Positions 2,037-54,203 of a DNA stretch of 64,000 nucleotides are shown one piece after another. Where the stretch lies: positions 95,617-159,616 of the forward strand of contig JACRNL010000010.1 in assembly GCA_016234935.1 (NCBI GenBank), in the 5' to 3' direction. Position numbers and translations under genes: made by a program. The number at the start of each line of letters is the position of its first letter. Position 1 is the first letter of the stretch. The notes under the pieces are model-generated. The model had not been told where the DNA came from and ran no database searches. It saw nothing but the letters and a program-made list of their open reading frames with translations. Source of the DNA: Deltaproteobacteria bacterium. Its GTDB lineage: Bacteria > Desulfobacterota > GWC2-55-46.

Positions 2037-2147
2037 CCTCTTCCTTATCTCCTCCCCCTTGATGGGGGAGGGTAGGGTGGGGGTGAAAAAAGCCCCTTGA
2101 AGGGGTTCAACCCCCTCACCCTACCCTCTCCCGCGAGGGGAGAGGAG
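2037..2147. repeat. Pair of REP-like elements (ccccaccctaccctcccc-loop-ggggaggag family) with an 18-bp micro-insertion at 2093-2114
   Basis: Hairpins ctccccc..gggggag and cctctccc..gggagagg; cccc ttgaa gggg ttcaa cccc at 2093-2114. Related copies at 4667-4730, 24105-24205 and 26012-26073. Confidence 0.8.
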
Positions 2148-2296
2148 AAAAAAAGATTTAAAAATTACCTAATATGGCACAGTCTAACATACAATGGCAG
2201 AGCCTGCCCCCGCATGTCTGAAGCGGGGGGTGGGGGCAGTCCTTTCACGCATCACGGTCTTTATGCGCCACATTTAACCGCAGTTCAGGCAGTAAA

Positions 2297-2782
2297 ATGA
2301 AAGAAATTCTCATATTCCCGCCCATCGTAATACTCTATCTGACGTTAAAGACGACCCTGTTCATCTCCGTCCCTCTGCCGGACGTCACGCTCCTTATCGT
2401 ATTCTACATGGGTTTCAGGAGGCCTTCCGCCGAAGGGGCCGTCATGTCGTTTGCGCTGGGTTTCCTTGAAGACGCGCTGACAGGAGGGATATTCGGCATT
2501 ACCTCCTTTTCCCTCGTATCCATATTCCTGATGGTGCATATCGTCTCCGGGAAGGTCGAATTCTCGACGCCGCTGCCGAGGGCCGGCTCCGCCGCCGTTT
2601 TATCGCTCGTCAAGTGGCTCCTCGGATACGCGGCGCTGCGCTTGTCCGGAGTAAGCATTCCATTTACCGGCAAGGCGGCATTGCAGATTATCGCAACCGG
2701 CGCCCTGGCGCCGGTTGCGATAACCCTCCTGCTGCGCCTGTCGGCTTACCTGAGCCCCCGGACGTTTGAAAGAGGTGAATAG
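2297..2782 (+). CDS. mreD: Rod shape-determining protein MreD
   Basis: Hydrophobic 161 aa protein with PD..L and LGFLED..G motifs; lies between mreC and mrdA. Confidence 0.85.
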   Translation: MKEILIFPPIVILYLTLKTTLFISVPLPDVTLLIVFYMGFRRPSAEGAVMSFALGFLEDALTGGIFGITSFSLVSIFLMVHIVSGKVEFSTPLPRAGSAAVLSLVKWLLGYAALRLSGVSIPFTGKAALQIIATGALAPVAITLLLRLSAYLSPRTFERGE

Positions 2783-2785
2783 CCT

Positions 2786-4795
2786 TTGAGCGAATACTTC
2801 AAGGATAAGGAAACATCCGCGCTCAAAAACAGGGCGGTCTATGTCGGCATATTCGTCGCCGTGGTATTCTTCACGCTGGCCGTGCGTCTGTGGTTTCTGC
2901 AGATAAAAGAGGGCGAATACTACGCTGAGCTTGCAAAGAGCAACCGCATCCGCACCGTCAAATCCCCCGCGCCGCGCGGGATGATATACGACCGCGTCGG
3001 CGTTAAACTCGTTGACAACCGCCCCGGCTTTGACCTCTACCTAGTCCCTGAGGACGTCTTGGACTGGGTAAAGACAAAGGAACAGATCAACGACATCCTC
3101 GACGTAGAGCCGGAGGCCGTCCAGGAAAAACTCGACCAGGCCGAGGACAGGCCGCCATTCCAGGCCATAAAGCTAAAAGAAGACCTCTCGTGGGAGGAGA
3201 CGGTCAGGATAGAAAGCTCCAAATTCGAGATGCCCGGCGTTATCCTTGAGGTCAGCCCCAAGAGGAATTACATCTTCGGCGAAGCGTTCTCGCACCTCAT
3301 AGGCTATCTCGGCGAGATAAACGAAAAAGAGACAAAGGAATTCAAGAACGACAAAAACTACGCCCCCGGCGACCTCATCGGCAAGTACGGCATGGAAAAA
3401 TCATTTGAGCCGGACTTGAAGGGCGTGGACGGCGCGAAGGAGATAGAAGTCGACGCGCTGGGCAGGAAGATAAAACTCGCGAACTGGACGCCGCCGTACC
3501 CGGGCAACGACATAAAGCTCACCATAGACATCAAGGCGCAGATGGCCGCGTGGGCCGCGATGGACGGCAAGGCAGGGGCCGTGGTGGCCATGGAGCCGCA
3601 GACGGGCAGGATACTGGCCATCGTGAGCGCGCCCGCGTTCGACCCGAACGCGCTCTCAAGCGGCATCTCCGCCGAGGACTGGAACGACCTTATCGAAAAC
3701 CCTCTGAACATCTTCAACAACAGGCCCATACAGGGGCTCTACCCTCCGGCGTCGACCTTCAAGCCCGTACACGCGGCGGCGGCCCTTGAGGAGAAGGTGA
3801 TTACGCCGAAAACAATGATATACTCCGGCCCGTCCTTCCGATTCGCCAACCGCGACTACCGCGACTGGCAGGAGAAGGGACACGGTATCATCAACGTCCA
3901 CAGGGCAATAGTCGAATCTTCAGACACCTTTTTCTATCAGGTGGGACTCAAGCTCGGCGTTGACAGGCTTGCCGTTTACTCAAAGAGCTTCGGCTTCGGC
4001 CGGAAGACCGGCATACAGCTTCCAAATGAAAAGCCCGGCGTCGTGCCGTCGACCGCGTGGAAAAGGGCCGCGCTGAAGACGCGCTGGTATGACGGCGAGA
4101 CTATCTCGGCTTCGGTCGGACAGGGCTATATGCTGGCAACGCCGCTGCAGCTCGCGTCGGCCTATGCCGCCATAGCCTCCGGCGGCACGATCTACGCGCC
4201 GCAGCTCGTCGAAGAGATAAGGTCCCCGATGGGGACGCTCTTGAAACAGTTCGTCCCGCGGCAAACGGGCAGACTGGCCATATCCGAAGAGACCCTCGGC
4301 GAGGTAAAGGACGCCCTGGAAGGCGTTGTCAATGAAGACGGCGGCACCGCGCGCTTTCTGAGCTATGCAAATCTGAAGATAGCCGGCAAGACAGGCACGG
4401 CGCAGGTGACCAAGCTCATCAAGCGGGAAAGGAACGTCTTGAAGATACCTTACGAATACCGCGACCACGCGTGGTTCGCGGGCTACGCGCCGTATGACGA
4501 TCCGAAGATAGCGGTGGCCGTAATAGTCGAGCACGGCGGCTTCGGCGCGAGTTCCGCGGCGCCGGTCGCCAGAGATATCTTCAAGGCATTCCTCGGCGCG
4601 GACGACAAAGACGCCGGCCAAAAACCCGGACTGACGCCGGACAGGGACATTTTACAGACACGGGAACCCCCCACCCTACCCTCCCCAGCGAGGGGGGTTG
4701 AACCCCTTCAAGGGGAGGAGAAATGGAAGGAGTCATCTGAAACAAAAAAACCGCCGGAAAAACCGGAAGAAAACGGAGACGGGATAAGTGATTGA
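2786..4795 (+). CDS. mrdA: Penicillin-binding protein 2; C-terminal tail partly encoded by a REP element
   Basis: SxxK (STFK), SSD and KTG motifs, N-terminal TM and the mre operon context. Confidence 0.95.
   Translation: MSEYFKDKETSALKNRAVYVGIFVAVVFFTLAVRLWFLQIKEGEYYAELAKSNRIRTVKSPAPRGMIYDRVGVKLVDNRPGFDLYLVPEDVLDWVKTKEQINDILDVEPEAVQEKLDQAEDRPPFQAIKLKEDLSWEETVRIESSKFEMPGVILEVSPKRNYIFGEAFSHLIGYLGEINEKETKEFKNDKNYAPGDLIGKYGMEKSFEPDLKGVDGAKEIEVDALGRKIKLANWTPPYPGNDIKLTIDIKAQMAAWAAMDGKAGAVVAMEPQTGRILAIVSAPAFDPNALSSGISAEDWNDLIENPLNIFNNRPIQGLYPPASTFKPVHAAAALEEKVITPKTMIYSGPSFRFANRDYRDWQEKGHGIINVHRAIVESSDTFFYQVGLKLGVDRLAVYSKSFGFGRKTGIQLPNEKPGVVPSTAWKRAALKTRWYDGETISASVGQGYMLATPLQLASAYAAIASGGTIYAPQLVEEIRSPMGTLLKQFVPRQTGRLAISEETLGEVKDALEGVVNEDGGTARFLSYANLKIAGKTGTAQVTKLIKRERNVLKIPYEYRDHAWFAGYAPYDDPKIAVAVIVEHGGFGASSAAPVARDIFKAFLGADDKDAGQKPGLTPDRDILQTREPPTLPSPARGVEPLQGEEKWKESSETKKPPEKPEENGDGISD
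4667..4730. repeat. REP-like element inside the mrdA 3' end, carrying an 18-bp micro-insertion (4694-4715)
   Basis: ccccccaccctaccctcccc...gggg ttgaa cccc ttcaa gggg aggagaaatggaagg, translated as PPTLPSPARGVEPLQGEEKWK. Confidence 0.85.
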
Positions 4796-9836: not shown

Positions 9837-10442
9837 ATGCCTGGACAAAAACGCGGCAGATTAAGGAGAGGCGCGCCTGACGCGCGCTTATCGGCGCAGG
9901 CGGATAAAACAGCCCCTGAGATGGAAATGGAAACGGAAACCGGCGCAAGCGCCGCCCTGACCATGGCCATGCGGTTTATCTCTTACAGACCCAGATCCGT
10001 AAAAGAAACCGCTCAAAAGCTTACTGACAGCGGCTTTTCCGGCGACGCCATAGAAGACACCATAAACCGCCTTAAAAGCGCGGGCTGTCTGGACGATGAG
10101 AGGTTCGCGCGCGAGCTTGCCGGCTCGAGGATAAGGAACAAAAACTGGGGCCTTAAAAGAGTGGCCCTTGACCTGCGCTCCAAAGGCATCTCCGATGAGA
10201 TAATCCACGCCGCGCTCTCAAACATTGACGCATCGGCTGACGCTGAAACCGCGGCGCGCGCCCTTGAAAAATGGACAAGAAAAACAGGCGTAAAATTCCC
10301 CCGTGACGGAGTTCAACCCCCTGAGGGGGCTCAGCCCCTTGAAAAAAAAGCATTCGAGAAGGCATTCCGTCACCTTGCCGCAAGGGGTTTTTCCGCCCAT
10401 GTCATAATGGGGCTGCTTAAAAGAGGCGGGCAAGAAGATTAA
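9837..10442 (+). CDS. recX: Regulatory protein RecX with a 36-bp in-frame micro-insertion
   Basis: RPRS..E, LDDERFA, G..R...L..KGI and L..RGF motifs. The start may be a later ATG. Confidence 0.88.
   Translation: MPGQKRGRLRRGAPDARLSAQADKTAPEMEMETETGASAALTMAMRFISYRPRSVKETAQKLTDSGFSGDAIEDTINRLKSAGCLDDERFARELAGSRIRNKNWGLKRVALDLRSKGISDEIIHAALSNIDASADAETAARALEKWTRKTGVKFPRDGVQPPEGAQPLEKKAFEKAFRHLAARGFSAHVIMGLLKRGGQED
10299..10338. repeat. Two tandem 18-bp micro-insertion units in recX
   Basis: cccc gtgac ggag ttcaa cccc ctgag gggg ctcag cccc. Removing 36 bp restores KFPLEKK. Confidence 0.85.
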
Positions 10443-18469: not shown

Positions 18470-18491
18470 CCCCTTGAAGGGACTGCACCCC
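18470..18491. repeat. Degenerate 18-bp micro-insertion unit
   Basis: cccc ttgaa ggga ctgca cccc. Confidence 0.65.
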
Positions 18492-23274: not shown

Positions 23275-25500
23275 GTGAAAAAAGAGAGCGACAGAGAGCG
23301 GAAAAGGGAATTCCTTGCCGAGGCCGAAGACATCCTGTCCACTATGGGTAAGGGTCTTTTAAGGCTCGGCAAAGGCGTAAAGGCCGGCATCATAGACCCG
23401 GCGGTATTGAACTCCATATTCCGCTCCGCGCACACATTGAAGGCCAGCTCCAGCGTCTTCGACTTCGCCGATATGGCGCGTCTCAGCCACACCCTTGAAG
23501 ACACCCTCGACATGCTCCGGCACGGACGCATCACGGTCTCCAATGAATGCCTCTCGTCCATAATGACCGCGCATGACCTCCTCGTGAGAATAGCCGCCTC
23601 AAAGGGCCGTAAAGAGTTCCATGAGGAGGTCAAAAAGGTCGAAGCCCTTTTAAGCGCAAAGTCCAGACCCGAAAAAACGGCCGCGGAAGCGCAAATAGAC
23701 AAAGGGCTCCTGTCCACGCTCACGGAATACGAGGCGCACAGGCTCGGAGAGAACATCCGTGAGGGCAAGAACGTATTTATAATCGAAGCAAAGTTCCCCG
23801 TAACTAGCTTTGACAAAATCTACATATCCCTTATAGAGGCGTTAAAACCCTCCTCGGAGCTTATCGCAACGCTTCCTTCCCTGAAAAGGGTTGAACCCTC
23901 TCAGAGGAACGACCACTCTCTGTTCTTCGACATCTACATCGGGACTGACCGTGACAAAGCATGCGTCGTAAACCTCGTAAAAGAGCCTTTTAACGCGTAT
24001 ACCGGGACTGAATATGACAAGGTAACAGAGCCTTTCAGCGCGGGGGTGCGGGGGTTGAATGAAAAAACCCGGGATAAAACAGACGCAGGCGGCGCCTTTG
24101 ATGACCCCTTCCATATCTCCTCCCCCGCACCACTCGCCGCTACAGACGCATCGCTAAACGCAAACAGCCTTACGAGCGAGTGGTGCGGGGAGGGTAGGGT
24201 GGGGGATGCTGAAACGGGCAATCCTCAGCCTGAAAGCCCTGCTCCGCCGTTTGACGACACGCCGCAGGAGACACTCAGAAAACAGACCAAGAGCGTGCGC
24301 GTCAACATAAAAAAACTCGACGGCATAATGAACCTTGTAAGCGAGCTGGGTTTCTTAAAATCCAGCCTCTCGGAGCTTTCCTCGGAGCTTAAAGACGGCA
24401 GCACGCTTCCTTCATACGGCATCCGCCTGTCCCGGATAGAAAAGCTCTTTGAAAAAAAGATAGCGGAATTACGAGACAGCGTGCTCGGCGCAAGGATGAT
24501 CCACATAGGCCAGCTCTTCGGCAGGTTTGATCCCTTTATCGACCGGGTCTCGCGGGAGACGCAAAAAGAGATACGGGTGGTAACATACGGGGATGCGACC
24601 GAGATAGACAAACTCATCATCGAAGAACTCGCGGACCCGCTCATGCACATCGTCAGAAACGTAATAGACCACGCCATAGAGCCGCCTTCTGAAAGAGAGG
24701 CCGCGCACAAGCCGCGCTCCGGCACCATCACCCTGTCGGCCTACCAGAAGGGCAACCACGCCGTCGTGGAGGTCAGGGACGACGGCAGGGGCATAGACGA
24801 AGCGCTTTTGAAAAAAAAGGCCGTGGAAAAAGGCCTGCTGAGCTTCGATGCCGCCAGGGGCCTGTCCCTGCACGAGACGCTTGAGCTTATTTTCCTTCCG
24901 GGCTTTTCCACATGCGACGCCGTAAGCGCGTCATCCGGCAGGGGCGTAGGCATGGACGTGGTAAAGGATAACATCTCGCGCCTTTCGGGCATGATAGACA
25001 TAGAAACCATCCTGGGCAAGGGCACGCGCTTTATCCTTACCATCCCCGTAACCCTCGCGGTAATAGACGCGCTTATCGTTGAAGACGGCGGGATTCGCTA
25101 CGCCCTGCCGCTTAATTCCATCACCGAGGTGGCCGCCGTCACTCCCCTGCCCGCGGACGCCTGCCCGGACGCCTGCGAGGCCGGAGGGCATGTAAACATA
25201 AACGGCAGGGACATGCCTTCAATACGTCTGGGAGACATCCTTGGCCGGAGCGCGTGCGCCTGCGGCTCGTTATGCTCAGGCATAGTGACCGGAGGGCCGG
25301 GCCACAGGCTGTGCATAATCGTGGAACGGATAATCGAAGAGCTTGACGTGATAGTAAAACCCTTGCCGGAGATGATAAAGACCCCCTGCATAGCCGGGGC
25401 CGCGGACCTCGGCGAAAAAGGCGCCGTCCTCCTGCTCGACATCGCGGCCATCACAGACCTGGCCGGAAAGCAGCGCCAAAAACAGTGCGGTCATAGTTGA
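23275..25500 (+). CDS. cheA: Chemotaxis histidine kinase CheA with repeat-derived in-frame inserts
   Basis: FRSAHTLK (P1), HIVRNVIDH, DDGRGID, FLPGFST, SGRGVGMDVV and a CheW-like P5 domain. Confidence 0.93.
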   Translation: MKKESDRERKREFLAEAEDILSTMGKGLLRLGKGVKAGIIDPAVLNSIFRSAHTLKASSSVFDFADMARLSHTLEDTLDMLRHGRITVSNECLSSIMTAHDLLVRIAASKGRKEFHEEVKKVEALLSAKSRPEKTAAEAQIDKGLLSTLTEYEAHRLGENIREGKNVFIIEAKFPVTSFDKIYISLIEALKPSSELIATLPSLKRVEPSQRNDHSLFFDIYIGTDRDKACVVNLVKEPFNAYTGTEYDKVTEPFSAGVRGLNEKTRDKTDAGGAFDDPFHISSPAPLAATDASLNANSLTSEWCGEGRVGDAETGNPQPESPAPPFDDTPQETLRKQTKSVRVNIKKLDGIMNLVSELGFLKSSLSELSSELKDGSTLPSYGIRLSRIEKLFEKKIAELRDSVLGARMIHIGQLFGRFDPFIDRVSRETQKEIRVVTYGDATEIDKLIIEELADPLMHIVRNVIDHAIEPPSEREAAHKPRSGTITLSAYQKGNHAVVEVRDDGRGIDEALLKKKAVEKGLLSFDAARGLSLHETLELIFLPGFSTCDAVSASSGRGVGMDVVKDNISRLSGMIDIETILGKGTRFILTIPVTLAVIDALIVEDGGIRYALPLNSITEVAAVTPLPADACPDACEAGGHVNINGRDMPSIRLGDILGRSACACGSLCSGIVTGGPGHRLCIIVERIIEELDVIVKPLPEMIKTPCIAGAADLGEKGAVLLLDIAAITDLAGKQRQKQCGHS
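23887..23908. repeat. 18-bp micro-insertion (AGGG type) in cheA
   Basis: aggg ttgaa ccct ctcag agga, translated as KRVEPSQR. Confidence 0.8.
24105..24205. repeat. REP-like element with a nested hairpin, in frame in the CheA linker
   Basis: ccccttccatatctcctcccccgcaccactcgc...gcgagtggtgcggggagggtagggtggggg; same flanks as 2037-2084. Confidence 0.8.
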
Positions 25501-25522: not shown

Positions 25523-26032
25523 ATGAAAGAAAACCAGAGTAAAAAAAATTATGAAAGCCCTCCGCCCCCTGATGGGGCTGAACCCCCAAAAAAGGGGCAT
25601 GAGCAAAGACATAAGGTCTTCCCGTTTCTCCTCGGGACCAAGGAATATGCGTTCGAGGCTGGAGATGCGCCGGAGGTCTTGAAGGCCATGCCGGTTACCG
25701 AAGTCCCGTCCACGCCCGCCTTCATAAAAGGCATCATACCCTTCAGGGGGGAGATGCTTGCCGTCATTGACCTTAGAAACCGCCTTGGCATGGAAGGCGC
25801 CGCGCAAAAATCGAAGATGTTAATAGCAGGCGCCGATGACCTGAGGGCCGCCTTTCTCGTTGACGCCGTCGCAGGCGTCTGTGAAGCGGACACGCACCCG
25901 CCTGATGCTACGGAGGAAAAAGACGTTTTCGTAAAGGGGATCATTAAGTCGCAAGGGCGCGTCATCCGCGTGCTGTCGCTCGAAAAACTCCTGAATATCA
26001 GCATCAGCATGCCCCCCTGCCCTCCCCCGTGA
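25523..26032 (+). CDS. cheW: CheW coupling protein
   Basis: F.LG..EYA, TEVP..P.FIKGII..RG....VIDLR and VD.V motifs. The N-terminus has a repeat unit (25565-25586) and the C-terminus runs into a REP. Confidence 0.85.
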   Translation: MKENQSKKNYESPPPPDGAEPPKKGHEQRHKVFPFLLGTKEYAFEAGDAPEVLKAMPVTEVPSTPAFIKGIIPFRGEMLAVIDLRNRLGMEGAAQKSKMLIAGADDLRAAFLVDAVAGVCEADTHPPDATEEKDVFVKGIIKSQGRVIRVLSLEKLLNISISMPPCPPP

Positions 26033-26400
26033 AGGGGTTGAACCCCCTCAGGGGGGAGGAGAAATGGAAGGGGTCGTGCCGACAAAAAAATGACTCTCAC
26101 GCGGATGCGCGCGGGCGCCTTGCTTCAGCCTCCTCAATAATCCTTTCTTTTTATCGCGGCAAAGGTTTTATATGCCGTCATTCCCGCCTGCCCCCTGAGG
26201 GGGTTCAACCCTTTGAAAGGGTTCAACCCTCGCGTGCCCCGTTTAAAACCCCCGCTCCCCGATAGAGGCATTCGAGGACATGTTTAGACCTGCGAGGGTT
26301 GAACCCTTTCAAAGGGCAGGCGCGCGAGGGCAGGCTGAAGCAGGGGATATTTTAATCCGCCCTCGAATAGTTGTATCCCCGATACAGACATTCGGGGGGT
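26012..26400. repeat. Cluster of nested palindromic elements, including 18-bp units at 26034-26055, 26191-26230 and 26295-26316
   Basis: gggg ttgaa cccc ctcag gggg; cccc ctgag gggg ttcaa ccct ttgaa aggg ttcaa ccct; aggg ttgaa ccct ttcaa aggg; plus cccgata..cattcg.gg hairpins. Confidence 0.85.
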
Positions 26401-38611: not shown

Positions 38612-40712
38612 TTTCCCTCCCCTTGAAGGGGCTGAGCCCCCTCAGGGGGTTCAACCCCCTTAACACTCTTAAATCCCCCTGCCGGAGCGTGACCCTCTCC
38701 CTGTCAAAATATTCGAGTATCTCTATCGCGAGCTTCCTGCCGACGCCGAGTATGTCCCTGAACTCGGCGGCCTTTATCGGCCCCTTTTCCATGATATGCG
38801 CGCAGAGCCTCTCTTTGGCGTCATTAACGGCCTTGCCGGACATATAGACGCCTTCTTTTATCTTCACCACGACGCCGCGCTTGACGAGATATCCAAAGAC
38901 GCGCGCCGCGTCCTCAGGCTTGAACGCGAGCCCCCTTATCTCATCCATAGAGCGCGCGGTAAAACCGCCGGATTGGAAAAGGGCCATTACAGCGGCCTCT
39001 ATCTGCGCGTCCTGTCCGGCGGCGCGCGGACAATGCCCGGCAAGCGCGACGGCCTTGCCGTCTCTTTTAATCATGCCCTGCGTTATCATTACGTCAAGGC
39101 ATTCCTTGAAAAATGAAACTGTGCAACGCGCCCAGCACCACTTTTCGCTGCCAACGTTTGTATTTCGCATGAACTCTTGGCGATGGAAAGTGGTGCTGGG
39201 CGCTCTTACGGCCTTAAATATCTGGTCTTCCTTGACGCCGGCCTCGGCGGGGCTTGCGGCGTGAAGGTCTGAAAGCGTTTTTACGATGTCGCTCTTCAGT
39301 TTTTCAACCCTGTCAACGGACGCTATCGAACTGCCCATGATGGCGAACTTCCCTCTCCCTGAGGGAGTCCGGGACAGAGGCCCTTTTGATTCGAATGATT
39401 TAAGCAGAACATCTTCCCTTATATTCAAGAGGAGAGAGACGGTCTTTACGTCAAAAAAAACAGCCTTGCCGTGAAAGACCGAGGCGAGCAGCTCATGGAG
39501 TTCAGCCCCTTCAAGCGGCAACACCGGCTCCCTGAAGGAGTTCAACTCCTTTGAAAGACCGGGAAGATGCACAACCCCGCCGCCAACGGTGGCATTTATT
39601 GCAGGGTCTCTGAGGATGAAACGGTCGCCCCGAAGCATTAACATGGGCTTTTTCAATATCAGCCTGCCAAAGGCGCGCCGTTCGTCCGCCTTGCGGCCCG
39701 TCCGGCTCCCTAAGGGAGTTCGGCTCCCTGAGGGAGTCCCGCCCTTTAATCTTATTGTCGCTGGAACGCTTTGCGTAAAATGGTGCACGGTAAGTATCGC
39801 GTTGTTTTTTATCTTCGCATCCTTCAGAAACTCAAAAAAGCAGTCCACGCGGCGCGTATTGGCCGGGCTTGAAAAAGCCGACAGGGCCGGGTCGGCGAGC
39901 ACGCAGCCGCGCGTTATGCCGCTGTGTGAAATGCCGCTTATGTTTACGGCGGCCCGCTCCCCGGCGTTGACCTCATCGGCCTCCATGAACAGGCTTTGAA
40001 GCCCCCTTACACGCGCCTCTTTTCCAAGAGGAAAGCATACGGCCCTGTCGCCTTTTTTTATCGAGCCTGAGGCCACGGTGCCGGTAACGACCGTGCCAAA
40101 GCCCGGCACGCTGAAGGAGCGGTCAATGGGGAGCCTGAAAAAGCCGCCATTATCCCGCGCGCGCGGGGCGAGGGCTTTTTCTATCAGCTTTTTAAGGCTT
40201 GAGATGCCCTCGCCCGTGACGGAAGAGACCGGCTGGATAACTGAACCTTCAAAGGCCGTGCCTTTTATAAGTTTTAAGATTGCATTTTCAACCTCACGGA
40301 TGCGCGCCTCTTCCGCCATGTCGCGCTTGGTGATGGCGAATACAGCCCTTTTTATCCCAAGAAGCACGCAGATGCCGAAGTGCTCAAGCGTCTGCGGCAT
40401 TATCCCGTCGTCGGCGGCCACCACAAAAAGCGCCATGTCAATGCCGGTCGTTCCGGAGAGCATGTTCTTTATGAAACGCTCATGGCCGGGCACGTCAATG
40501 ACTGCGGCCCTTAGAGCGCCCCCGGCGCCGTCGAGGTCAAGATACGCAAAGCCGATGTCAATGGACAGCCCGCGCTTTTTTTCTTCCTTCAGCCTGTCCG
40601 TGTCAATGCCCGTAAGGGCACGGACGAGGGAGGTCTTGCCGTGGTCTATGTGCCCGGCGGTGCCGATGACGGCGGATATGCGCGTTATGTGCGGCATGTT
40701 CTGTTGTTCCAT
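38604..40712 (-). CDS. selB: Selenocysteine-specific elongation factor SelB with several repeat-derived inserts
   Basis: GTAGHIDHGKT, TDRLKEEKKRG, DVPGHERF, IDRSF...GFGTVVTGT and C-terminal RK.AI..LEYFD winged helix. Confidence 0.95.
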   Translation of the reverse strand: MEQQNMPHITRISAVIGTAGHIDHGKTSLVRALTGIDTDRLKEEKKRGLSIDIGFAYLDLDGAGGALRAAVIDVPGHERFIKNMLSGTTGIDMALFVVAADDGIMPQTLEHFGICVLLGIKRAVFAITKRDMAEEARIREVENAILKLIKGTAFEGSVIQPVSSVTGEGISSLKKLIEKALAPRARDNGGFFRLPIDRSFSVPGFGTVVTGTVASGSIKKGDRAVCFPLGKEARVRGLQSLFMEADEVNAGERAAVNISGISHSGITRGCVLADPALSAFSSPANTRRVDCFFEFLKDAKIKNNAILTVHHFTQSVPATIRLKGGTPSGSRTPLGSRTGRKADERRAFGRLILKKPMLMLRGDRFILRDPAINATVGGGVVHLPGLSKELNSFREPVLPLEGAELHELLASVFHGKAVFFDVKTVSLLLNIREDVLLKSFESKGPLSRTPSGRGKFAIMGSSIASVDRVEKLKSDIVKTLSDLHAASPAEAGVKEDQIFKAVRAPSTTFHRQEFMRNTNVGSEKWCWARCTVSFFKECLDVMITQGMIKRDGKAVALAGHCPRAAGQDAQIEAAVMALFQSGGFTARSMDEIRGLAFKPEDAARVFGYLVKRGVVVKIKEGVYMSGKAVNDAKERLCAHIMEKGPIKAAEFRDILGVGRKLAIEILEYFDRERVTLRQGDLRVLRGLNPLRGLSPFKGREIA
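38619..38658. repeat. Nested pair of 18-bp micro-insertions at the selB 3' end
   Basis: cccc ttgaa gggg [ctgag cccc ctcag gggg] ttcaa cccc. Confidence 0.9.
39355..39736. repeat. Four micro-insertion loci inside selB, mostly CTCC/GGAG type (39355, 39497, 39528, 39706)
   Basis: ctcc ctgaa ggag ttcaa ctcc (39528-39549); ctcc ctaag ggag ttcgg ctcc ctgag ggag (39706-39736). Confidence 0.78.
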
Positions 40713-40847: not shown

Positions 40848-41666
40848 ATGCCGGAAAATGCCGAAAAAATAAGGCCGAAGGCGGCTTTTTTCTCATTCAC
40901 CTGCTGCGAGGGCTGCCAGCTCGCCGTGCTCAGCTGTGAAGACGAGCTGCCTGACATACTGCGCGCCCTTAATATCGTTTACTTCCGCGAGGCGATGACC
41001 GAAAAGCGCGTTGAACCCTCTCAGAGGGAGGATTACGATATCGCCTTTGTCGAAGGCTCCGTCACCACGCAAAAAGAGATAACAAAACTCAAGCATATCC
41101 GCAAAAAGGCAAAGACCGTCATAGCCCTTGGCGCGTGCTCGTCCACAGGCGGGCTCAACTGCCTTAAAAACCGTTTTCCCATGGACTTCGTTAAAAAGAC
41201 GGTATACGGCAAATACGCCGAAAAATATAAAAAAACATTTGAGACCCTGCCTGTAAGGCCGATTGATTCCATAATAAAAGTTGACTGCTATTTGCACGGC
41301 TGTCCGATATCGAAGACTGAATTCCTGTCCGCGTTCACCGCGCTTCTCATGGGCAAGACACCCATAACCCAGAACTACCCCGTGTGCGTCGATTGCAAGA
41401 TGGCCGGAAACATCTGCGTATTTGAAAAGGGCATGACCTGTCTTGGGCCGGTGACTCGGGCCGGATGCGACGCCGTCTGCGTCACATACGGGTGCATCTG
41501 CTGGGGCTGCCGGGGACTTGTCGACGACCCGAACGTGTCGGCCCATAAAGAGACGCTAAAGAGATACGGCCTCACCGCCGAATCGATGCTGCGCAGCTTT
41601 GATCTTTACGGCAACTGCTCCCTGAGAAAGTCCGGCTCCCTGGGAGTCAGGCCCGCTAAAAAATGA
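40848..41666 (+). CDS. [NiFe]-hydrogenase small subunit (group 3b delta-like)
   Basis: CCEGC, FVEGS, ALGAC...GG, GCP, VC.DC, CLGPVTRAGC...C and C.GC.G motifs; no Tat signal. 18-bp insert at 41007-41028. Confidence 0.88.
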   Translation: MPENAEKIRPKAAFFSFTCCEGCQLAVLSCEDELPDILRALNIVYFREAMTEKRVEPSQREDYDIAFVEGSVTTQKEITKLKHIRKKAKTVIALGACSSTGGLNCLKNRFPMDFVKKTVYGKYAEKYKKTFETLPVRPIDSIIKVDCYLHGCPISKTEFLSAFTALLMGKTPITQNYPVCVDCKMAGNICVFEKGMTCLGPVTRAGCDAVCVTYGCICWGCRGLVDDPNVSAHKETLKRYGLTAESMLRSFDLYGNCSLRKSGSLGVRPAKK

Positions 41667-45012: not shown

Positions 45013-45049
45013 GGGGCTGAGCCCCCTCAGGGGGTCAAACCCCCTTCAA
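45013..45049. repeat. 18-bp micro-insertion array
   Basis: gggg ctgag cccc ctcag gggg tcaaa ccccc ttcaa. Confidence 0.8.
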
Positions 45050-46691: not shown

Positions 46692-47837
46692 TCAGCCTTT
46701 TTCATAAAACGCGGCAATGCTCGCCACGACATATTTTTGCTGCGCCGCGCTGAGCTCGGGATATATCGGCAGCGCCATTACCTGTTTTGCCGCCTTCTCG
46801 GACTCAGGCAGGCTCCCTGTTTTATAACTTAGGTATTTAAAACACTTCTGCTGATGGAGCGAAAGCGGATAGTATATCTCCGAGCCGATGCCCTGGGCCG
46901 AAAGATGCGCCCTCAGCTCGTCTCTCTTTTTAGCCCTGATGACGTATTGATTGTAGACCGAAAGGCAGTTGCCTTCAACGTATGGGACAGCCACCTTGCC
47001 TTCCAGCCCGGCCTTTTCAAAAAGCGCGTCGTAGCGCGCGGCGTTCTTTATCCTTCCATCCGTCCATGCGTCAAGGCGTTTAAGTTTTACCCTGATGACC
47101 GCGGCCTGAAGCTCGTCGAGCCTGCTGTTGGCACCGACGAGGTCATGATAATACCGCTTTTTACTGCCGTGGACACGAAGCATCCTGACCAGTCCCGCGA
47201 GCTTCGGGCTGTTCGTAGTGACCATGCCGCCGTCGCCGAAACCGCCGAGGTTCTTCGTGGGATAAAACGAAAAACAGCCCATGTCGCCGATGGCCCCGGC
47301 CTTTTTACCTTTGTATCCAGCCCCGATGGACTGCGCCGCGTCTTCTATGACCGGCAGGCCGTATTTGCGCGCGATCTTATTTATCGCCGCCATGTCGGCG
47401 CACTGGCCGTAAAGATGCACCGGCAGTATCGCCTTGAAGGGGTTCAACCCCTTGACGCCTTTGGCGCTCTTCTTTAAAACAGCTTCAACCGCCGCAGGGT
47501 CAATGTTGTATGTCCGCGGGTCTATGTCAACGAAGACCGGCAGCGCGCCAAGCCTGGCGATGCTTCCGGCCGTGGCGAAAAAGGTAAACGGCGTCGTGAT
47601 GACCTTGTCGCCGATGCCAACGCCTGCGGCCATGAGGGCAAGCAGCAGCGCGTCCGTGCCGGAAGCCACGCCCACGGCGAACCGCGCGCCGCTGTAAGCG
47701 GCTATCTCGGATTCAAGGGCGGCGCAATTTTTACCCAGTATATAATGCTGGGAGTCGCAGACAGTCTTTACTTCCTTCAATACTTCGGTTCTTATCGACC
47801 TGTACTGACCTGCAAGATCTAAAAGCGGGACCTTCAA
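46692..47837 (-). CDS. DegT/DnrJ/EryC1/StrS PLP-dependent sugar aminotransferase
   Basis: SGTDAL, FTFFAT, PVHLYGQ, EDAAQ, SFYPTKNLG..GDGG and NSRLDE motifs. 18-bp insert at 47432-47455. Confidence 0.95.
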   Translation of the reverse strand: MKVPLLDLAGQYRSIRTEVLKEVKTVCDSQHYILGKNCAALESEIAAYSGARFAVGVASGTDALLLALMAAGVGIGDKVITTPFTFFATAGSIARLGALPVFVDIDPRTYNIDPAAVEAVLKKSAKGVKGLNPFKAILPVHLYGQCADMAAINKIARKYGLPVIEDAAQSIGAGYKGKKAGAIGDMGCFSFYPTKNLGGFGDGGMVTTNSPKLAGLVRMLRVHGSKKRYYHDLVGANSRLDELQAAVIRVKLKRLDAWTDGRIKNAARYDALFEKAGLEGKVAVPYVEGNCLSVYNQYVIRAKKRDELRAHLSAQGIGSEIYYPLSLHQQKCFKYLSYKTGSLPESEKAAKQVMALPIYPELSAAQQKYVVASIAAFYEKG

Positions 47838-47909: not shown

Positions 47910-48332
47910 TCAGCGCGGCGCGCCTTCCGGCCTTTTCTCTTCGGCCTCTCTGTGCATTCTGTCGAGTATGCCGTTGACGAACGCGCCGGATTCATCCGTG
48001 CCGAAACGCTTGGCCAGCTCTACCGCTTCGTCTATGGCCACCTTGAAGGGGACGTCGGAATAGCGCATCTCATATACGGCTATCCTCAATATATTGCGGT
48101 CAACGAGCGGCATGCGCTCGACGCTCCAGTTATCGGAAGATATCTCGATTACGCGGTCTATGTCGCCCTTTTTCTCCAGCACGCCGCGCACAAGGGCCTC
48201 GGCATAATCCTTTACCCCCTCAGGGGGCTGAACCCCCTGAAGGGGTTCAACCCCGGCGCCGCTTTCCTCGGCGATGTCAATACTGTAAAGCATCTGGACC
48301 GCCATCTCTCTTGCCTTGCGCCTGGAGTTCAT
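47910..48332 (-). CDS. nusB: Transcription antitermination factor NusB with a 12-aa repeat-derived insert
   Basis: RRKARE.A.Q.LY, W...R...VDR.ILR, IDEAVELAK.FG and FVNGILD motifs. Confidence 0.95.
   Translation of the reverse strand: MNSRRKAREMAVQMLYSIDIAEESGAGVEPLQGVQPPEGVKDYAEALVRGVLEKKGDIDRVIEISSDNWSVERMPLVDRNILRIAVYEMRYSDVPFKVAIDEAVELAKRFGTDESGAFVNGILDRMHREAEEKRPEGAPR
48215..48254. repeat. Two tandem 18-bp micro-insertion units in nusB
   Basis: cccc ctcag gggg ctgaa cccc ctgaa gggg ttcaa cccc. Confidence 0.9.
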
Positions 48333-48812: not shown

Positions 48813-48876
48813 TTGCTTCCTCCTGTTTTCTTCTATTCACTTACGCGCCTCTGTCATTCAACAAGTAAAAATCAGA

Positions 48877-48921: not shown

Positions 48922-48926
48922 CGACG

Positions 48927-50162: not shown

Positions 50163-50205
50163 TTTTACCGCCTCCGTCTGTATGCTTCAGTAATCTTAAA
50201 AAAAC

Positions 50206-50245
50206 CCCCCTGAGGGGGCTGGACCCCTTGAAGGGACTGGACCCC
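50206..50245. repeat. 18-bp micro-insertion array, intergenic
   Basis: cccc ctgag gggg ctgga cccc ttgaa ggga ctgga cccc. Confidence 0.8.
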
Positions 50246-50300
50246 TCGGAGCCGCCTGTCCATTAATCCCCGCCACGATGAGCGTGCAGGCAAGAAAAAT

Positions 50301-51011
50301 CTATCCCTTCTTGAAAAACCCGTGCTCCTTGAGGAACTCTTCCGACACACCCTTCTTCCCTTCCTTCGCGCTTAAAAACCGCTCCACATACTTCGCCAGC
50401 ACGTCGGTTTCGATATTGACCGTGCTCCCTTCGGCCTTTGACGGCAGGGTCGTCTTTTCAAGAGTATGCGGAATAATCGCCGTTTTAAAAAAATCCAACC
50501 CCCTGAGGGGGCTGAGCCCCACTTCCGTGACGGTGAGGCTTATCCCATCCACAGCAATCGACCCCTTTTTGACGATTTGAGACATCAACCTCTCCGGCAC
50601 GCTTATCTCAAGGTCAACATGCCGGCCATTTGCGCTCTTTTTCCTTATTGTCCCGATGCCGTCTACATGGCCGGTGACGATGTGGCCGCCGAGGGGCTTG
50701 GAAAGTGTCAGAGCGGCTTCAAGGTTGACATGCGCGCCGCTTTTAAGCGTCCCCAGCGTGGTGAGCTTGAGCGTCTCAGCGCTCATGTCAGCCGAAAAAA
50801 GGGGGTGACCCCCTTCAACGCACTTTTTAATTTCCGTCACGGTCAAACACGCGCCGTTGACGCTGATGCTGTCGCCAAGGTTGACCCCGCTCAGTGGGCG
50901 GACATTTTCACGCGCCAAATCAACCAACGCCTCTATTGTTATTCTACCAGAAGCGCCTTTTTTTTCAACAGATTTGACCCTGCCTATTGCTTCTATTATG
51001 CCGGTAAACAC
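50301..51011 (-). CDS. ribE: Riboflavin synthase alpha with up to three 6-aa inserts
   Basis: GTG start giving MFTGII; GDSI.VNG.CLTV, GGH.V.GHVD and IPHT motifs. Confidence 0.95.
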   Translation of the reverse strand: MFTGIIEAIGRVKSVEKKGASGRITIEALVDLARENVRPLSGVNLGDSISVNGACLTVTEIKKCVEGGHPLFSADMSAETLKLTTLGTLKSGAHVNLEAALTLSKPLGGHIVTGHVDGIGTIRKKSANGRHVDLEISVPERLMSQIVKKGSIAVDGISLTVTEVGLSPLRGLDFFKTAIIPHTLEKTTLPSKAEGSTVNIETDVLAKYVERFLSAKEGKKGVSEEFLKEHGFFKKG

Positions 51012-51035
51012 CCTATTGCCGCCCTCCATAACTCA

Positions 51036-51569: not shown

Positions 51570-52691
51570 CTAAAAATGCCCCTCTATAAGGATATCCTTC
51601 CCGATCCTTTTCATCGTCATGTCTTTTATCACCAATGCCTTCGACATCTTTTTTATCCCCAGAGGGCCGATGCCTAAGGCAGCGCCGCCGCCGAGGACAA
51701 TCGGCGCGATAAAAAAAGATATCCTGTCAACAAGACAGGCCTTGATGAATGACGCGCCAAGAGAGCCGCCGCCCTCCACAAGGAGGCTGGCGATGGCACG
51801 GGAGCCAAGCTCCCTTAAGACCTTTTTAAGGTCAACCCCGCCGCCCATGCCTGCGCTCTTCGGCACTGTCACCACTTCCGCGCCTTTTGCCCGGGCTTTT
51901 TTTATCTTATCAGCCGGGGCCGCGTTCGTTGTAAAAATAATCAGCCGCACTTTTCCTGCATTGTCAAATATCTTCGCATCAAGAGGCGTCCGGAGCGAGC
52001 TGTCCACGACGACGCGGGCCGGGTTCTTCCCCTTTACAAGGCGCACGGTCAGCGCCGGGTCGTCTTTTAAGACCGTATTCAACCCGACCATAACGGCATC
52101 GGACTCTGAACGCATTTTATGGACGTGCCTGCGCGCTTCCACGCCGGTTATCCACTTCGACTCGCCCGCGGCGGTTGCTATCCTGCCGTCAATGGACATG
52201 GCGAGCTTTAGCGTGACGTACGGCATCTTTTTTGTAATATATTTAATATACCACTCGTTGAGTTCCGCGCACTCGAGTTCAAGAACGCCGGAGGTGACGT
52301 CTATGCCCGCGCGCCTCAAGATGCCGGCGCCCTTGCCGGCCACGAGCCGGTTCGGGTCCAACATGCCGGCGACCACCCTCTTTATGCCGGAACGCACGAC
52401 GGCGCCCGTGCACGGCGGGGTCTTCCCGTAATGGCAGCACGGCTCAAGCGTTACGTAGAGGGTAGCGCCCTTTACGCTCTCCTTAGCGTCTTTAAATGCC
52501 GCTATCTCCGCATGGGGCCGGCCCGCCTTTTTGTGAAAGCCCCTTGCAATGACGCGGCCGTTTTTTACGATGACCGCGCCGACCGTTGGATTAGGGCTTG
52601 TCTTGCCGAGACCCTTTTTCGCAAGCGCGAGCGCCTCGCGCATAAACCTCTCGTCAATGACCGCGTCTGCCGGAGGTTTCGGCGACATCAC
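51570..52691 (-). CDS. ribD: Riboflavin biosynthesis deaminase/reductase RibD
   Basis: PNP.VGAV, HAE, TLEPC.H..TPPC, DG.IA and VEGG motifs. Confidence 0.97.
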
Positions 52692-53397: not shown

Positions 53398-53682
53398 TTA
53401 GCTGCCGAGGACCGCGTCCTTGCATGCCTTTGCCACTCTGAACTTGACGACCCTCTTTGCCGGGATCTTTATCGGGTCGCCGGTCTGCGGGTTTCTGCCG
53501 ACACGCGCCTTCCTCTTTACGAGGACGAGCTTGCCTATTCCGGGGATAGTGAAGGAATTCTTCGCTTCCCTGTAAGCGAGCTGCGCGATCTGGCCTATGA
53601 TCTCTCCCGCGGCCTTCTTCGTGATGCCTGCCTTTGTTGCGATGTGTTCTGTAACCTGGGACTTTGTCAACGGCTTGGACAT
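53398..53682 (-). CDS. hup: Histone-like DNA-binding protein HU
   Basis: IPG.GK, RKAR.GRNPQTG..I.IPA and KF motifs; GGAGG RBS. Confidence 0.95.
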   Translation of the reverse strand: MSKPLTKSQVTEHIATKAGITKKAAGEIIGQIAQLAYREAKNSFTIPGIGKLVLVKRKARVGRNPQTGDPIKIPAKRVVKFRVAKACKDAVLGS

Positions 53683-54095
53683 TTGAACCTCCTGTGGTTT
53701 TAGTATCTGAAACAGACCTTAAAACTCGGTGTCGATTGCGCATTCAGCATGCACGCGGCGCGCGTGCCGTAGTATATCTTAATAGGATTCTTTTTTTTTG
53801 CAAGAAAAAAATGCACAGACCTTTTTCGTCAGAAGCAGCGGAGCCGGCAGACGAACCCGACCCGGCATTCCAGAACTTCCGCAAAATTTAATGAACTTTA
53901 TCACCAAAAGAACAATTTGTCAATAGCCGCCAAGCTCCCTCGACACGGAAGAAAATACCTGTTTTGACCGCATTTTTACTGCCTGCTTCGCAATATCAGC
54001 AAGCGGGCTTCCAGCCTCCGCGGGCGCATGAGCATCCGCCTTCCGGCCAACCGGCGCCAACGCTCTTTTTTAACCGGAGTCCGCTTGAATTTTTA

Positions 54096-54125
54096 TTGAC
54101 ATGTATCGCCTTGGAATGTTATAAA
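54096..54125 (+). promoter_or_regulatory. Probable sigma70 promoter of tRNA-Ala
   Basis: TTGACA-18 nt-TATAAA, with TG at the extended -10 position. Confidence 0.55.
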
Positions 54126-54181
54126 TTACTATTGCGGGCCGGCCTCTGGACATAAGAGGCGCCGTTGGCGCATATAAAAAA

Positions 54182-54203
54182 GGGGTTGAACCCCTTCAAG
54201 GGG
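54182..54203. repeat. 18-bp micro-insertion whose right GGGG is the tRNA 5' end
   Basis: gggg ttgaa cccc ttcaa GGGG(ctgtagctcag). Confidence 0.9.

What the first reader, a model, noticed from the sequence alone, without database searches (positions are those of the whole stretch)
2093..54203. Dispersed, frame-preserving 18-bp micro-insertion that appears to be templated by its target
Seen: about 25 loci follow S-L-revcomp(S)-L'-S, with S a 4-mer and L/L' 5-mers, mostly TTGAA, TTCAA, CTGAG or CTCAG. In the cleanest copies L and L' are reverse complements. Loci start at 2093, 4694, 10299, 18470, 23887, 25565, 26034, 26191, 26295, 38619, 39355, 39497, 39528, 39706, 41007, 41618, 45013, 47432, 48215, 48882, 50206, 50499, ~50801, ~50877 and 54182. 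Each unit adds 18 bp (6 codons), so insertions in genes keep the frame, and more than half the loci are inside CDSs. Inference: this behaves like a 14-bp cassette with 5-bp terminal inverted repeats and a 4-bp target duplication, whose core is an inverted copy of the target. It is much shorter than REPs, MITEs or Rickettsia palindromic elements, and I do not recognise it as a described element. No candidate enzyme is encoded in this window.
Basis: partly seen in the sequence, partly recalled or inferred. Interest (0 to 1): 0.92.

Follow-up and report, generated by a model that had tools for sequence, protein, structure and literature searches.

The report
Tiny recursive palindromic insertion element
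A groundwater bacterium's genome is peppered with about 460 copies of an 18-base palindromic module that adds itself at GGGG/CCCC-like sites, even inside essential genes where it adds six amino acids, and nothing known explains how it moves.

Summary
The window holds 21 matches (at most 1 mismatch) to CCCCYTSARGGGGYTSARCCCC against 0 in 100 shuffles. The 2.15-Mb genome holds 277 exact matches, in about 458 arrays of 13+9n bp. Forty order-level relatives have none, and 1 of 400 phylum genomes has a single match.

Close relatives' proteins lack exactly 6 residues at array sites: three in RibE, one in iPGM, one in RecJ. Contigs of related strains differ by 18, 36 or 54 bases.

Arrays follow a grammar, S -> S-YTGAR-rc(S)-YTCAR-S, applied recursively. 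Of 163 isolated 22-mers, 119 read G then C at the loop centres and 1 reads C then G. Most longer arrays are balanced-bracket words.

S is CCCC/GGGG in about 85% of perfect units. When the flanks vary, the core co-varies (47 matched, 5 not).

"Templated by the target" is not shown: variant families carry their own loop types, which points to inheritance plus target matching.

No RAYT, reverse transcriptase, Cas1, IS110, TnpB or DDE_Tnp_1 gene was found. The mobilising activity is unknown. I found no described equivalent.

The parts
2093..2114 (.). perfect 22-bp array CCCC-TTGAA-GGGG-TTCAA-CCCC, intergenic, at the apex of a ~200-bp hairpin repeat (2032-2200)
4694..4715 (.). perfect 22-bp array, in the C-terminal tail of the PBP2 ORF (2786-4795), encodes GVEPLQG
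10299..10338 (.). 40-bp array with a degenerate first unit, inside RecX (9837-10442) between its HTH2 match and the C-terminal part; encodes DGVQPPEGAQP
18470..18491 (.). degenerate 22-bp array (2 mismatches), intergenic
23887..23908 (.). variant-S (AGGG/CCCT) unit with one inconsistency, inside ORF 23275-25500
25565..25586 (.). 22-bp array (1 mismatch) at the 5' edge of the CheW ORF, upstream of the CheW domain
26025..26055 (.). 31-bp array overlapping the CheW stop codon
26191..26230 (.). 40-bp array that changes from S=CCCC to S=CCCT, intergenic
26295..26316 (.). perfect variant unit AGGG-TTGAA-CCCT-TTCAA-AGGG, intergenic
38619..38658 (.). perfect nested 40-bp array (loops TTGAA CTGAG CTCAG TTCAA) in the last codons of SelB; encodes GLNPLRGLSPFKG
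39355..39737 (.). several CTCC/GGAG-type and degenerate units inside SelB (39355, 39497, 39528, 39706), between its beta-barrel and winged-helix matches
41007..41028 (.). degenerate AGGG-type unit inside ORF 40848-41666
41618..41639 (.). degenerate CTCC/TCCGG-type unit (7 mismatches to canonical) at the end of ORF 40848-41666
45013..45043 (.). array with a perfect 22-mer plus one degenerate unit, intergenic
47430..47451 (.). 22-bp array (1 mismatch) inside the DegT-family aminotransferase; encodes KGLNPFK in a loop that is 9 residues longer than in two solved homologues
   Evidence: identical in an independent sample's contig (record 6)
48215..48254 (.). perfect 40-bp array inside NusB; encodes GVEPLQGVQPPEG in a variable loop
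48882..48921 (.). 40-bp array with a degenerate first unit, intergenic between the ORFs at 48336-48812 and 48927-50162
50206..50245 (.). 40-bp array with degenerate loops, intergenic between ORF 48927-50162 and RibE
   Evidence: related-strain contig shorter by 36 letters across 49969-50798
50499..50520 (.). perfect 22-bp array in RibE; 6-residue insertion GLSPLR absent from all 7 metagenome relatives and all 11 genome relatives aligned
50799..50819 (.). degenerate unit in RibE; 6-residue insertion EGGHPL shared with the 91%-identical relative P0002 only
50877..50897 (.). degenerate unit in RibE; 6-residue insertion LSGVNL found only in this genome. A related strain lacks 18 letters here
54182..54203 (.). 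perfect 22-bp array whose last bases overlap the start of tRNA-Ala (54200-54275)

Best explanation
This is a lineage-specific family of ultra-short mobile DNA.

Shown. The unit event adds 18 bp at a tetranucleotide S, mostly GGGG or CCCC, preferably in the context AR-S-YT. It converts S into S-YTGAR-rc(S)-YTCAR-S, which is a chiral 14-bp cassette plus a 4-bp duplication. Every S block of an existing copy is again a target, so arrays grow recursively: insertion into the core gives nested arrays and insertion into a flank gives tandem arrays. Every step is a multiple of 9 bp, so the reading frame is kept. One phase in three contains TGA and is purged. Copies therefore persist inside more than 100 genes as G-x-x-P-x-x-G-like loop insertions.

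Inferred. New copies descend from existing copies, and the donor's S must equal the target's S. One way to get this is staggered 4-nt cuts at an S-YTGAR boundary in donor and target followed by joining of cohesive ends. Recognition of the target by pairing with the cassette core would also work. The activity acts in trans and was not identified.
For: - Enrichment and restriction to this lineage.
- Array lengths are 13+9n, with 22, 40 and 58 bp favoured: 163, 90 and 9 arrays, against 123, 54 and 9 for 13, 31 and 49 bp.
- Empty sites. RibE has three separate 6-residue insertions with nested phyletic distribution: one shared with the 91%-identical relative, two private. iPGM: the 90%-identical P0242 and 13 of 13 genome relatives lack exactly VTPFKG, and 11 of those 13 have Gly at the site. 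RecJ has four insertions against 11 relatives, one of exactly 6 and one of 12 residues. DegT has a longer loop than solved homologues.
- NusB relatives carry one more unit, or a unit at another place, so the family is active across the genus-level clade.
- Related-strain contigs differ by 18, 36 or 54 letters.
- Grammar. Isolated 22-mers read GC in 119 of 163 and CG in 1 of 163. 40-mers are GGCC in 28 and GCGC in 25 of 90. Six of nine 58-mers are balanced words.
- The core matches the flanks in 47 of 52 variant-flank arrays.
- Variant families have their own loop types, which points to descent.
- Flanks are enriched for AA/AG on the left and YT on the right.
- In genes, 0 of 93 arrays sit in the TGA phase, although 3287 of 11157 free GGGG/CCCC sites do.
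Against: - No enzyme is identified. Y1/RAYT, RVT_1, Cas1, DDE_Tnp_1, IS110 and the TnpB Zn-ribbon domain give 0 hits. Only an IS3 fragment, an IS481-like gene, one large serine recombinase and 5 tyrosine-recombinase hits were found.
- The genome is a 15-contig metagenome assembly, so mobile genes may be missing.
- No event was observed directly. Absence in a relative could also be precise loss: the RibE unit at 50877 is already degenerate yet private.
- Empty sites were seen only at protein level or as gap lengths. I obtained no DNA of a close relative.
- 111 units have one non-matching flank, more than point mutation predicts from 19 mutated cores. The duplication is therefore not always clean, or 9-bp steps also occur.
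- NusB shows no net length change against distant relatives.
- How a first fully matched variant array arises is not explained.
Confidence: 0.55

Rival explanations
1. Target-templated synthesis. At a staggered break in S, each 3' end is extended by a YTGAR loop and then copies its own last four bases by fold-back. The two tails anneal through rc(S)/S and are filled in. The core is made anew from the target at every event.
For: - The core equals rc(flank) in 47 of 52 variant-flank arrays.
- Long arrays are uniform in a rare S, for example CCGG five times at C12:38166-38215 and GCCC/GGGC arrays.
- In iPGM the variant S (GGGT) is a native Lys-Gly codon junction and the core is ACCC.
- A symmetric 3'-extension model would explain the G-then-C chirality on both strands and the partly independent choice of the two loop types: 52 matched against 35 unmatched among the commonest isolated 22-mers.
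Against: - Variant-S families carry non-random loops. GTSAC occurs in 5 of 6 ACCC/GGGT arrays, and the rare pair TTGAA+GTCAC occurs twice, which suggests inheritance.
- Flanking dinucleotides do not predict the loop type (22 against 32 informative cases).
- No polymerase or template for the constant loop is known.
- No reverse transcriptase gene was found.
Confidence: 0.17
2. No dedicated enzyme. Replication or repair template switching copies 18 bases from an existing array into any site that shares the GGGG/CCCC microhomology. The G/C-rich mini-hairpins stall forks, so the process feeds itself.
For: - Donor S would have to equal target S.
- It gives an 18-bp quantum, because the return needs the same block polarity.
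- Flanks resemble array-internal context (AR-S-YT), which means longer microhomology.
- No transposase candidate was found.
- Template switching at short inverted repeats is documented; I saw only search listings and abstract openings for PMC8794818 and PMC8604942.
Against: - Unbiased copying of S-to-S windows predicts about 11% C-then-G units (36 of 320 windows). Isolated 22-mers show 1 of 163.
- Identical 22-mers are not clustered: 5 pairs within 5 kb against a permutation mean of 4.4. Known template switching is local.
- 4-6 bp is very little homology for jumps between loci.
- Nothing explains why only this sequence family, and only this lineage among 440 genomes, expanded.
Confidence: 0.15
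3. A functional motif kept by selection: a binding site of a dimeric protein, a terminator or RNA hairpin, or an uptake-type signal. In this reading it is not a mobile sequence.
For: - The 13-mers are perfect odd palindromes, typical of dimer binding sites.
- 205 of 458 arrays are intergenic although only about 14% of the genome is.
- Intergenic arrays often abut A/T runs.
Against: - 150 arrays lie in gene interiors as 6n-residue insertions in unrelated enzymes.
- They are absent from orthologues of close relatives.
- Single-strand folding of 22-mers is no better than shuffles: z = -0.3 and -1.0.
- Intergenic arrays show no preference for convergent gaps: 19 in 33 kb against 167 in 207 kb of tandem gaps.
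Confidence: 0.05
4. An ordinary 18-bp minisatellite that expands and contracts by slipped-strand mispairing.
For: - Trandem Repeats Finder reports period 18 at 39703, 48214 and 50206.
- Copies of the ~200-bp repeat differ by one 18-bp unit.
- NusB relatives differ by one unit.
Against: - Slippage cannot create a first unit at a naive site (RibE, iPGM, RecJ).
- It gives only GCGC-type arrays, whereas 28 of 90 40-mers are nested GGCC.
- Half-units alternate in orientation.
Confidence: 0.03

Closest known systems
REP / BIME / REPIN elements of proteobacteria, mobilised by RAYT (Y1 HUH) transposases
   Same: Short (20-40 bp) G+C-rich imperfect palindromes, hundreds of copies, often clustered in alternating orientation, lineage-specific. 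(Features recalled, not from a call.)
   Different: REPs are extragenic and carry a conserved GTAG-type head, and their genomes encode a RAYT. Here a third of the copies lie inside genes, there is no GTAG head, PF01797 has 0 hits, the unit is 9/18 bp, and a 4-bp duplication and strict chirality are seen.
Rickettsia palindromic elements (RPE) and Coxiella MITEs inserted in frame into genes
   Same: Palindromic repeats that insert into protein-coding genes without breaking the frame and add peptide segments. (RPE recalled. For Coxiella MITEs I saw only the listing of PMC5896051.)
   Different: Those are about 100-150 bp or more. Here the quantum is 18 bp, frame preservation follows from the 9-bp arithmetic, and arrays grow recursively.
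Mobile GC clusters of yeast mitochondrial DNA (e.g. GC42) and other ultra-short mitochondrial invaders (Podospora MUSEs, Allomyces double-hairpin elements)
   Same: Tiny G+C-rich palindromic elements with a putative short target-site duplication (AG), presence/absence polymorphism, merging of units, no own enzyme, and an unresolved mechanism (PMC4478555, passages read). MUSEs and double-hairpin elements were seen only as entries in the reference list of PMC7218506.
   Different: Those are mitochondrial, 30-50 bp, with a 2-3-bp duplication. No core-equals-target rule, 9-bp modularity or bracket grammar is described for them. The host here is a bacterium.
MITEs (non-autonomous DNA transposons)
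   Same: Terminal inverted repeats, target-site duplication, many copies, trans-mobilisation assumed.
   Different: The cassette is 14 bp with 5-bp inverted ends, far below any MITE. No parent IS with such ends was found. The core co-varies with the duplicated target, which a plain transposon does not do.
IS200/IS605-type single-strand transposition (target read by base pairing with a guide inside the element)
   Same: A 4-5-nt target coupled to a short sequence inside the element is the nearest known logic for 'core complementary to target'. (Recalled.)
   Different: That family makes no target duplication and needs TnpA (Y1), which is not found here. Intergenic arrays show no strand bias relative to GC skew.

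Membership tests
REP/REPIN (RAYT-mobilised) | RAYT / Y1 transposase gene in the genome | tested here: not met
   PF01797 gave 0 hits in G000 (completeness 100%, 15 contigs); the control rang in 6 of 14 known genomes
REP/REPIN (RAYT-mobilised) | Extragenic location | tested here: not met
   205 of 458 arrays are intergenic; 150 lie in gene interiors and 103 at gene edges
REP/REPIN (RAYT-mobilised) | Conserved GTAG-like tetranucleotide next to a stable hairpin (feature recalled) | tested here: not met
   The consensus has no such head. 22-mers fold at only -4.2 and -5.0 kcal/mol, z = -0.3 and -1.0
MITE | Target-site duplication | tested here: met
   Identical 4-mers flank the cassette in 320 strict hits. 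The RibE and iPGM empty sites are consistent with a single copy
MITE | Size of roughly 50-500 bp with inverted ends long enough to bind a transposase, and a related autonomous IS | tested here: not met
   14-bp cassette with 5-bp ends. No IS-size repeat in the assembly. DDE_Tnp_1 gave 0 hits; rve hits are an IS3 fragment and a single IS481-like gene
Rickettsia-type palindromic elements | In-frame insertion into protein-coding genes | tested here: met
   RibE, iPGM, RecJ, DegT, RecX, NusB, SelB
Rickettsia-type palindromic elements | Element length of about 100-150 bp and sequence relatedness | tested here: not met
   The unit is 18 bp and arrays reach at most 58 bp. No Rfam family other than tRNA matched in the window
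Tandem repeat / minisatellite | Head-to-tail direct copies that arise by slippage from an existing copy | tested here: not met
   Half-units alternate in orientation. 28 of 90 40-mers are nested GGCC. New units occur at naive sites
Yeast mitochondrial GC clusters | G+C-rich palindrome with a short target duplication, polymorphic presence, no encoded enzyme | tested here: met
   Features of GC42 come from PMC4478555 passages. This is likeness of behaviour only; there is no sequence or host relationship
IS200/IS605-like | TnpA (Y1) and insertion without duplication next to a guide-matched target | tested here: not met
   PF01797 and the TnpB Zn-ribbon gave 0 hits. A duplication is present

The most novel reading that the evidence does not exclude
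This may be the smallest mobile DNA yet seen in a cellular genome. It is a 14-bp chiral cassette whose 4-nt core specifies, or is written by, its own 4-nt target, so that a change in the core retargets the element. It is moved by an enzyme class or repair pathway not yet linked to transposition. It has remodelled surface loops of more than 100 proteins in one bacterial lineage.
Probability: 0.3. Interest if true: 0.92.

Novelty: new variant of a known kind. Interest (0 to 1): 0.76.

Why it matters
How very short palindromic repeats spread is a long-standing open question. Bacterial REPs without a RAYT, mitochondrial GC clusters and ultra-short invaders all raise it.

This family is unusually legible. 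Its units are perfect and young. Its growth obeys a simple bracket grammar. Target and core are coupled. Close relatives with empty sites exist in public groundwater metagenomes. Together these make the mechanism testable, by phyletic profiling for the responsible gene and by looking for polymorphic sites in reads.

It is also a natural experiment in protein evolution. More than 100 genes, including RibE, NusB, RecJ, SelB, iPGM and RecX, have accepted one to four 6-residue G-x-x-P-x-x-G-type loop insertions.

For annotation, such arrays inflate ORFs at gene ends, create apparent lineage-specific indels and break assemblies.

Tried and rejected
It gave no information, and the scan is spent.
- The search for related loci in metagenome contigs with P0004 was swamped by a conserved pattern. 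The best locus was 57% identical, so I obtained no DNA of a close relative and could not read empty sites at nucleotide level.
- My third homologous-protein search used too strict an E-value and returned only 2 proteins. One was still useful (P0242).
- 'W-triplication' idea, in which the loops are copied from the target's own AR/YT flanks. Flank dinucleotides did not predict loop type (22 against 32 informative cases), so I rejected it.
- Symmetric 9-bp cohesive-fragment ligation. It predicts no chirality, but 119 to 1 is observed. Rejected.
- Local copying. Identical 22-mers are not clustered (5 pairs against a permutation mean of 4.4; 233 of 500 permutations reach 5).
- Strand-specific (lagging-strand) targeting. 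Intergenic arrays read C-first 12 and G-first 14 in positive-skew regions, and 43 and 36 in negative-skew regions. No bias.
- Viral origin. 0 matches in viral contigs.
- Rfam. Only tRNA-Ala matched in the window.
- Literature. The six 13-mers occur only in unrelated human or miRNA papers. General searches gave analogues but no equivalent. Supplements were not consulted.
- AlphaFold model of RibE from the 8-row alignment. Mean pLDDT was 60.7, too poor to use. In that model the three insertions fall between strands, which I do not count as evidence.
- Read laying. High summed depth and many loose ends at 38619/38658 show only that the 40-mer occurs in many contigs of those metagenomes. Parts without cover are not interpreted.

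Full report
WHAT IS THERE

The window is G000:C5:95617-159616 of a 2.15-Mb, 15-contig, 54% G+C genome. The runs that hold it are groundwater metagenomes. The nearest named homologues of its RibE and NusB are from 'Deltaproteobacteria / Thermodesulfobacteriota bacterium' assemblies.

Against the canonical 22-mer, 8 are perfect and 4 have one mismatch. The rest are degenerate or belong to variant families.

The motif CCCCYTSARGGGGYTSARCCCC occurs 21 times in the window with at most 1 mismatch, against 0 in 100 dinucleotide shuffles. It occurs 277 times exactly in the genome, against 0 for the reversed control.

None of 40 relatives has it (24 of the same family, 16 of the same order; no second member of the genus is held). 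Of 400 other genomes sampled across the phylum, one has a single match. IMG/VR viral contigs have none.

ANATOMY

The most abundant 13-mers of the genome are odd palindromes:
- CCCCCT-S-AGGGGG, 168 copies
- CCCCTT-S-AAGGGG, 166 copies
- GGGGTT-S-AACCCC, 141 copies
- GGGGCT-S-AGCCCC, 117 copies

Neighbouring palindromes overlap by their 4-base S block, so arrays have lengths of 13+9n. With a caller that tolerates two mismatches per added 9-mer I find 458 arrays:
- 13 bp: 123
- 22 bp: 163
- 31 bp: 54
- 40 bp: 90
- 49 bp: 9
- 58 bp: 9
- irregular lengths: a few

S-rc(S)-S at 9-bp spacing gives 590 hits, against 49-105 at five other spacings.

As single strands the 22-mers fold no better than shuffles.

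THE UNIT EVENT IS AN 18-BP INSERTION

RibE (window 50301-51029, minus strand) has three 6-residue insertions relative to 11 family or order relatives and relative to close metagenome relatives.
- GLSPLR is the perfect array at 50499-50520. It occurs only in this genome.
- LSGVNL (50877-50894) also occurs only in this genome.
- EGGHPL (50799-50816) is shared with P0002 (91% identical in the alignment) but not with P0003-P0005 (80-82%).
- Removing 18 bp from the perfect array leaves a single GGGG, which gives Glu-Val-Gly-Leu-Asp. The relative reads Glu-Ala-Gly-Arg-Asp.

iPGM: the 90%-identical P0242 lacks exactly six residues, as do 13 of 13 genome relatives. Of those 13, 11 have Gly at the site.

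RecJ has four insertions relative to 11 relatives. They measure 12, about 9-10, 21 (array plus other residues) and 6 residues.

DegT has a loop 9 residues longer than in two solved homologues, at the array.

In NusB the 40-bp array sits in a variable loop, with no net length change against distant relatives. However, three close relatives carry one more 6-residue unit, and a fourth carries GVEPLQ at another position. The family is therefore active across a genus-level clade.

Contigs of related strains from three studies, laid on 38000-52000, differ from the window by 18, 36 or 54 letters in the pieces that cross arrays (records 14, 19, 21, 26 and 27). One strain lacks 18 letters at 50877-50896. 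A contig from an independent sample reproduces the DegT array exactly. Other pieces show gaps of 21, 22 and 26 letters (records 23, 11 and 12), so not every indel is 18n.

GRAMMAR

Reading only the central base of each loop:
- Isolated 22-mers are G-then-C in 119 of 163, GG in 17, CC in 12 and C-then-G in 1.
- 40-mers are GGCC (nested) in 28 and GCGC (tandem) in 25 of 90. Most of the rest are one flip away.
- Six of nine 58-mers are balanced-bracket words, taking G as open and C as close. By chance 5 of 64 words are balanced.

This is what recursive application of S -> S-YTGAR-rc(S)-YTCAR-S to any S block produces. A loop flip rate of about 9% accounts for the GG and CC units and for the single CG.

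Nested growth is about twice as frequent per available block as tandem growth. This fits the flank preference AR-S-YT, which is exactly the context of a cassette core: left flanks are AA or AG in 33% of cases, and right flanks are T-rich.

IS THE CORE TEMPLATED BY THE TARGET?

S is CCCC/GGGG in 277 of 320 strict hits. Fully co-varying variant families also exist:
- CCCT/AGGG, 41 hits
- GCCC/GGGC, about 9
- ACCC/GGGT, about 7
- CCTG/CAGG, about 7
- GTCC/GGAC, about 7
- CTCC/GGAG and CCTC/GAGG
- CCGG, including an array with five CCGG blocks

Among units with palindromic loops, variant flanks come with the matching core in 47 cases, with a canonical core in 2 and with another core in 3. A plain transposon with a fixed cassette is therefore excluded.

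In iPGM the variant S (GGGT) is the native Lys-Gly codon junction, and the core is ACCC.

ACCC/GGGT arrays use the loop GTSAC in 5 of 6 cases, and the rare pair TTGAA+GTCAC occurs twice. GGGC and GTCC families also use GTSAC. Among the commonest canonical 22-mers, GTSAC appears in 4 of 163. Loop types thus run in families with S, as expected if copies descend from copies and can only enter targets that share their S. I therefore rank 'inheritance plus matching' above 'fresh templating', with both open.

WHAT IT IS NOT

- Slippage cannot start a unit at a naive site or make nested arrays.
- Unbiased template-switch copying of array windows would give about 11% C-then-G units (36 of 320 windows). 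One of 163 is seen.
- Identical units are not clustered.
- Ligation of symmetric 9-bp cohesive fragments would lose chirality.
- The flanks do not supply the loops.
- Intergenic arrays show no strand bias relative to GC skew.

ENZYME

The genome (100% complete by markers, but a metagenome assembly) gives no hit for Y1/RAYT, RVT_1, Cas1, DDE_Tnp_1, IS110 or the TnpB Zn-ribbon. It has three rve hits: a truncated IS3-type OrfB, a further fragment, and one IS481-like gene. It also has one large serine recombinase and five tyrosine-recombinase hits. The assembly holds no IS-size repeat. None of these genes is linked to the arrays by any evidence here.

CONSEQUENCES

With a crude codon-usage gene caller (1842 genes, 86% coding), the 458 arrays fall as follows:
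- intergenic: 205
- gene interiors: 150
- within 40 codons of the longest possible start: 54
- within 25 codons of a stop: 27
- across a gene end: 22

Per free GGGG/CCCC site, intergenic DNA is occupied about five times more often than coding DNA.

In genes, 0 of 93 even-length arrays use the phase that contains TGA. On coding strands G-first arrays outnumber C-first by 75 to 18, more than site availability predicts (5062 against 2808). This is unexplained.

Typical inserted peptides are GLNPLRG, GLSPLRG, GVEPLQG and GAEPPQG.

COMPARISON WITH KNOWN SYSTEMS

REP/REPIN, MITEs, Rickettsia palindromic elements and IS200/IS605 each fail at least one defining feature (see Membership tests).

In behaviour the nearest analogues are the mobile GC clusters of yeast mitochondria. 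They are tiny G+C-rich palindromes with a putative AG duplication, merging of units and an unresolved mechanism (PMC4478555, passages read). Other ultra-short mitochondrial invaders are known to me only from a reference list.

I found no paper containing these motifs in a relevant context. My text searches found no bacterial element of this size and logic. This does not cover subscription journals or supplements.

VERDICT

The finding is real, far beyond chance, restricted to this lineage, and behaves as an 18-bp recursive insertion module with a target-matched core. The mechanism is unknown. I rate it a new variant of the kind 'short interspersed palindromic mobile repeats', with a substantial chance that the mechanism is new.

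Noticed in passing
window 2032-2200; also C9:72523-72740, C15:33871-34091, C9:50797-50996 and others: A ~200-bp repeat family: 13 copies of at least 150 bp and 19 partial copies. It folds into a long hairpin (window 2030-2165: -39.9 kcal/mol, z = -7.1) with a micro-array at its apex. Copies differ by one extra 18-bp unit.
   Followed up: partly
window 2040-2085, 4670-4730, 26010-26075; about 99 sites genome-wide: A second short repeat ('family B') with the core CCCTCCCCC-RTSAA-GGGGGAGG, flanked by CACCCTACCCTC-like arms. It often lies directly upstream of an RBS-like GAGGAGAAATGG. It supplies CCCC/GGGG targets and may be the ancestral source of the 13-mer palindrome.
   Followed up: partly
window 54281-54488: A 39-bp tandem repeat, 5.3 copies with 97% matches, directly downstream of tRNA-Ala(GGC) at 54200-54275.
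   Followed up: no
window 42961-43040 and about 44870-44918: Other REP-like palindromic repeats. Summed contig depth is very high in four groundwater metagenomes. The related k-mers CAGGCTGCTCAAAAAGCC, CTTTAGCCGTGCGCAGCA and CCTTTCTTGAAAGAAAGG occur 26-27 times in the genome.
   Followed up: no
window 39355-39737 and 41618 (SelB and neighbour); C12:124876: A variant unit with S = CTCC/GGAG in which the second loop is TCCGG/TTCGG instead of TTCAA (18-bp period CGGCTCCCTAAGGGAGTT). SelB is 702 aa, against 582-614 aa for solved bacterial SelB chains.
   Followed up: partly
G000:C10:238643-240520 (RecJ, L122): One gene carries four separate array-derived insertions relative to 11 relatives, so some genes are hit repeatedly. 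Arrays are mildly clustered overall: 18% of gaps are under 500 bp, against 10% expected.
   Followed up: yes
genome-wide, coding strands: Arrays inside genes are G-first on the coding strand 75 times and C-first 18 times. Free GGGG:CCCC sites in the allowed phases are 5062:2808. This could be peptide selection or a transcription-linked insertion bias.
   Followed up: partly
G000:C7:229698-230717: A tyrosine-recombinase (Xer-like) gene itself carries a GGGT/ACCC-type unit at C7:230258.
   Followed up: no
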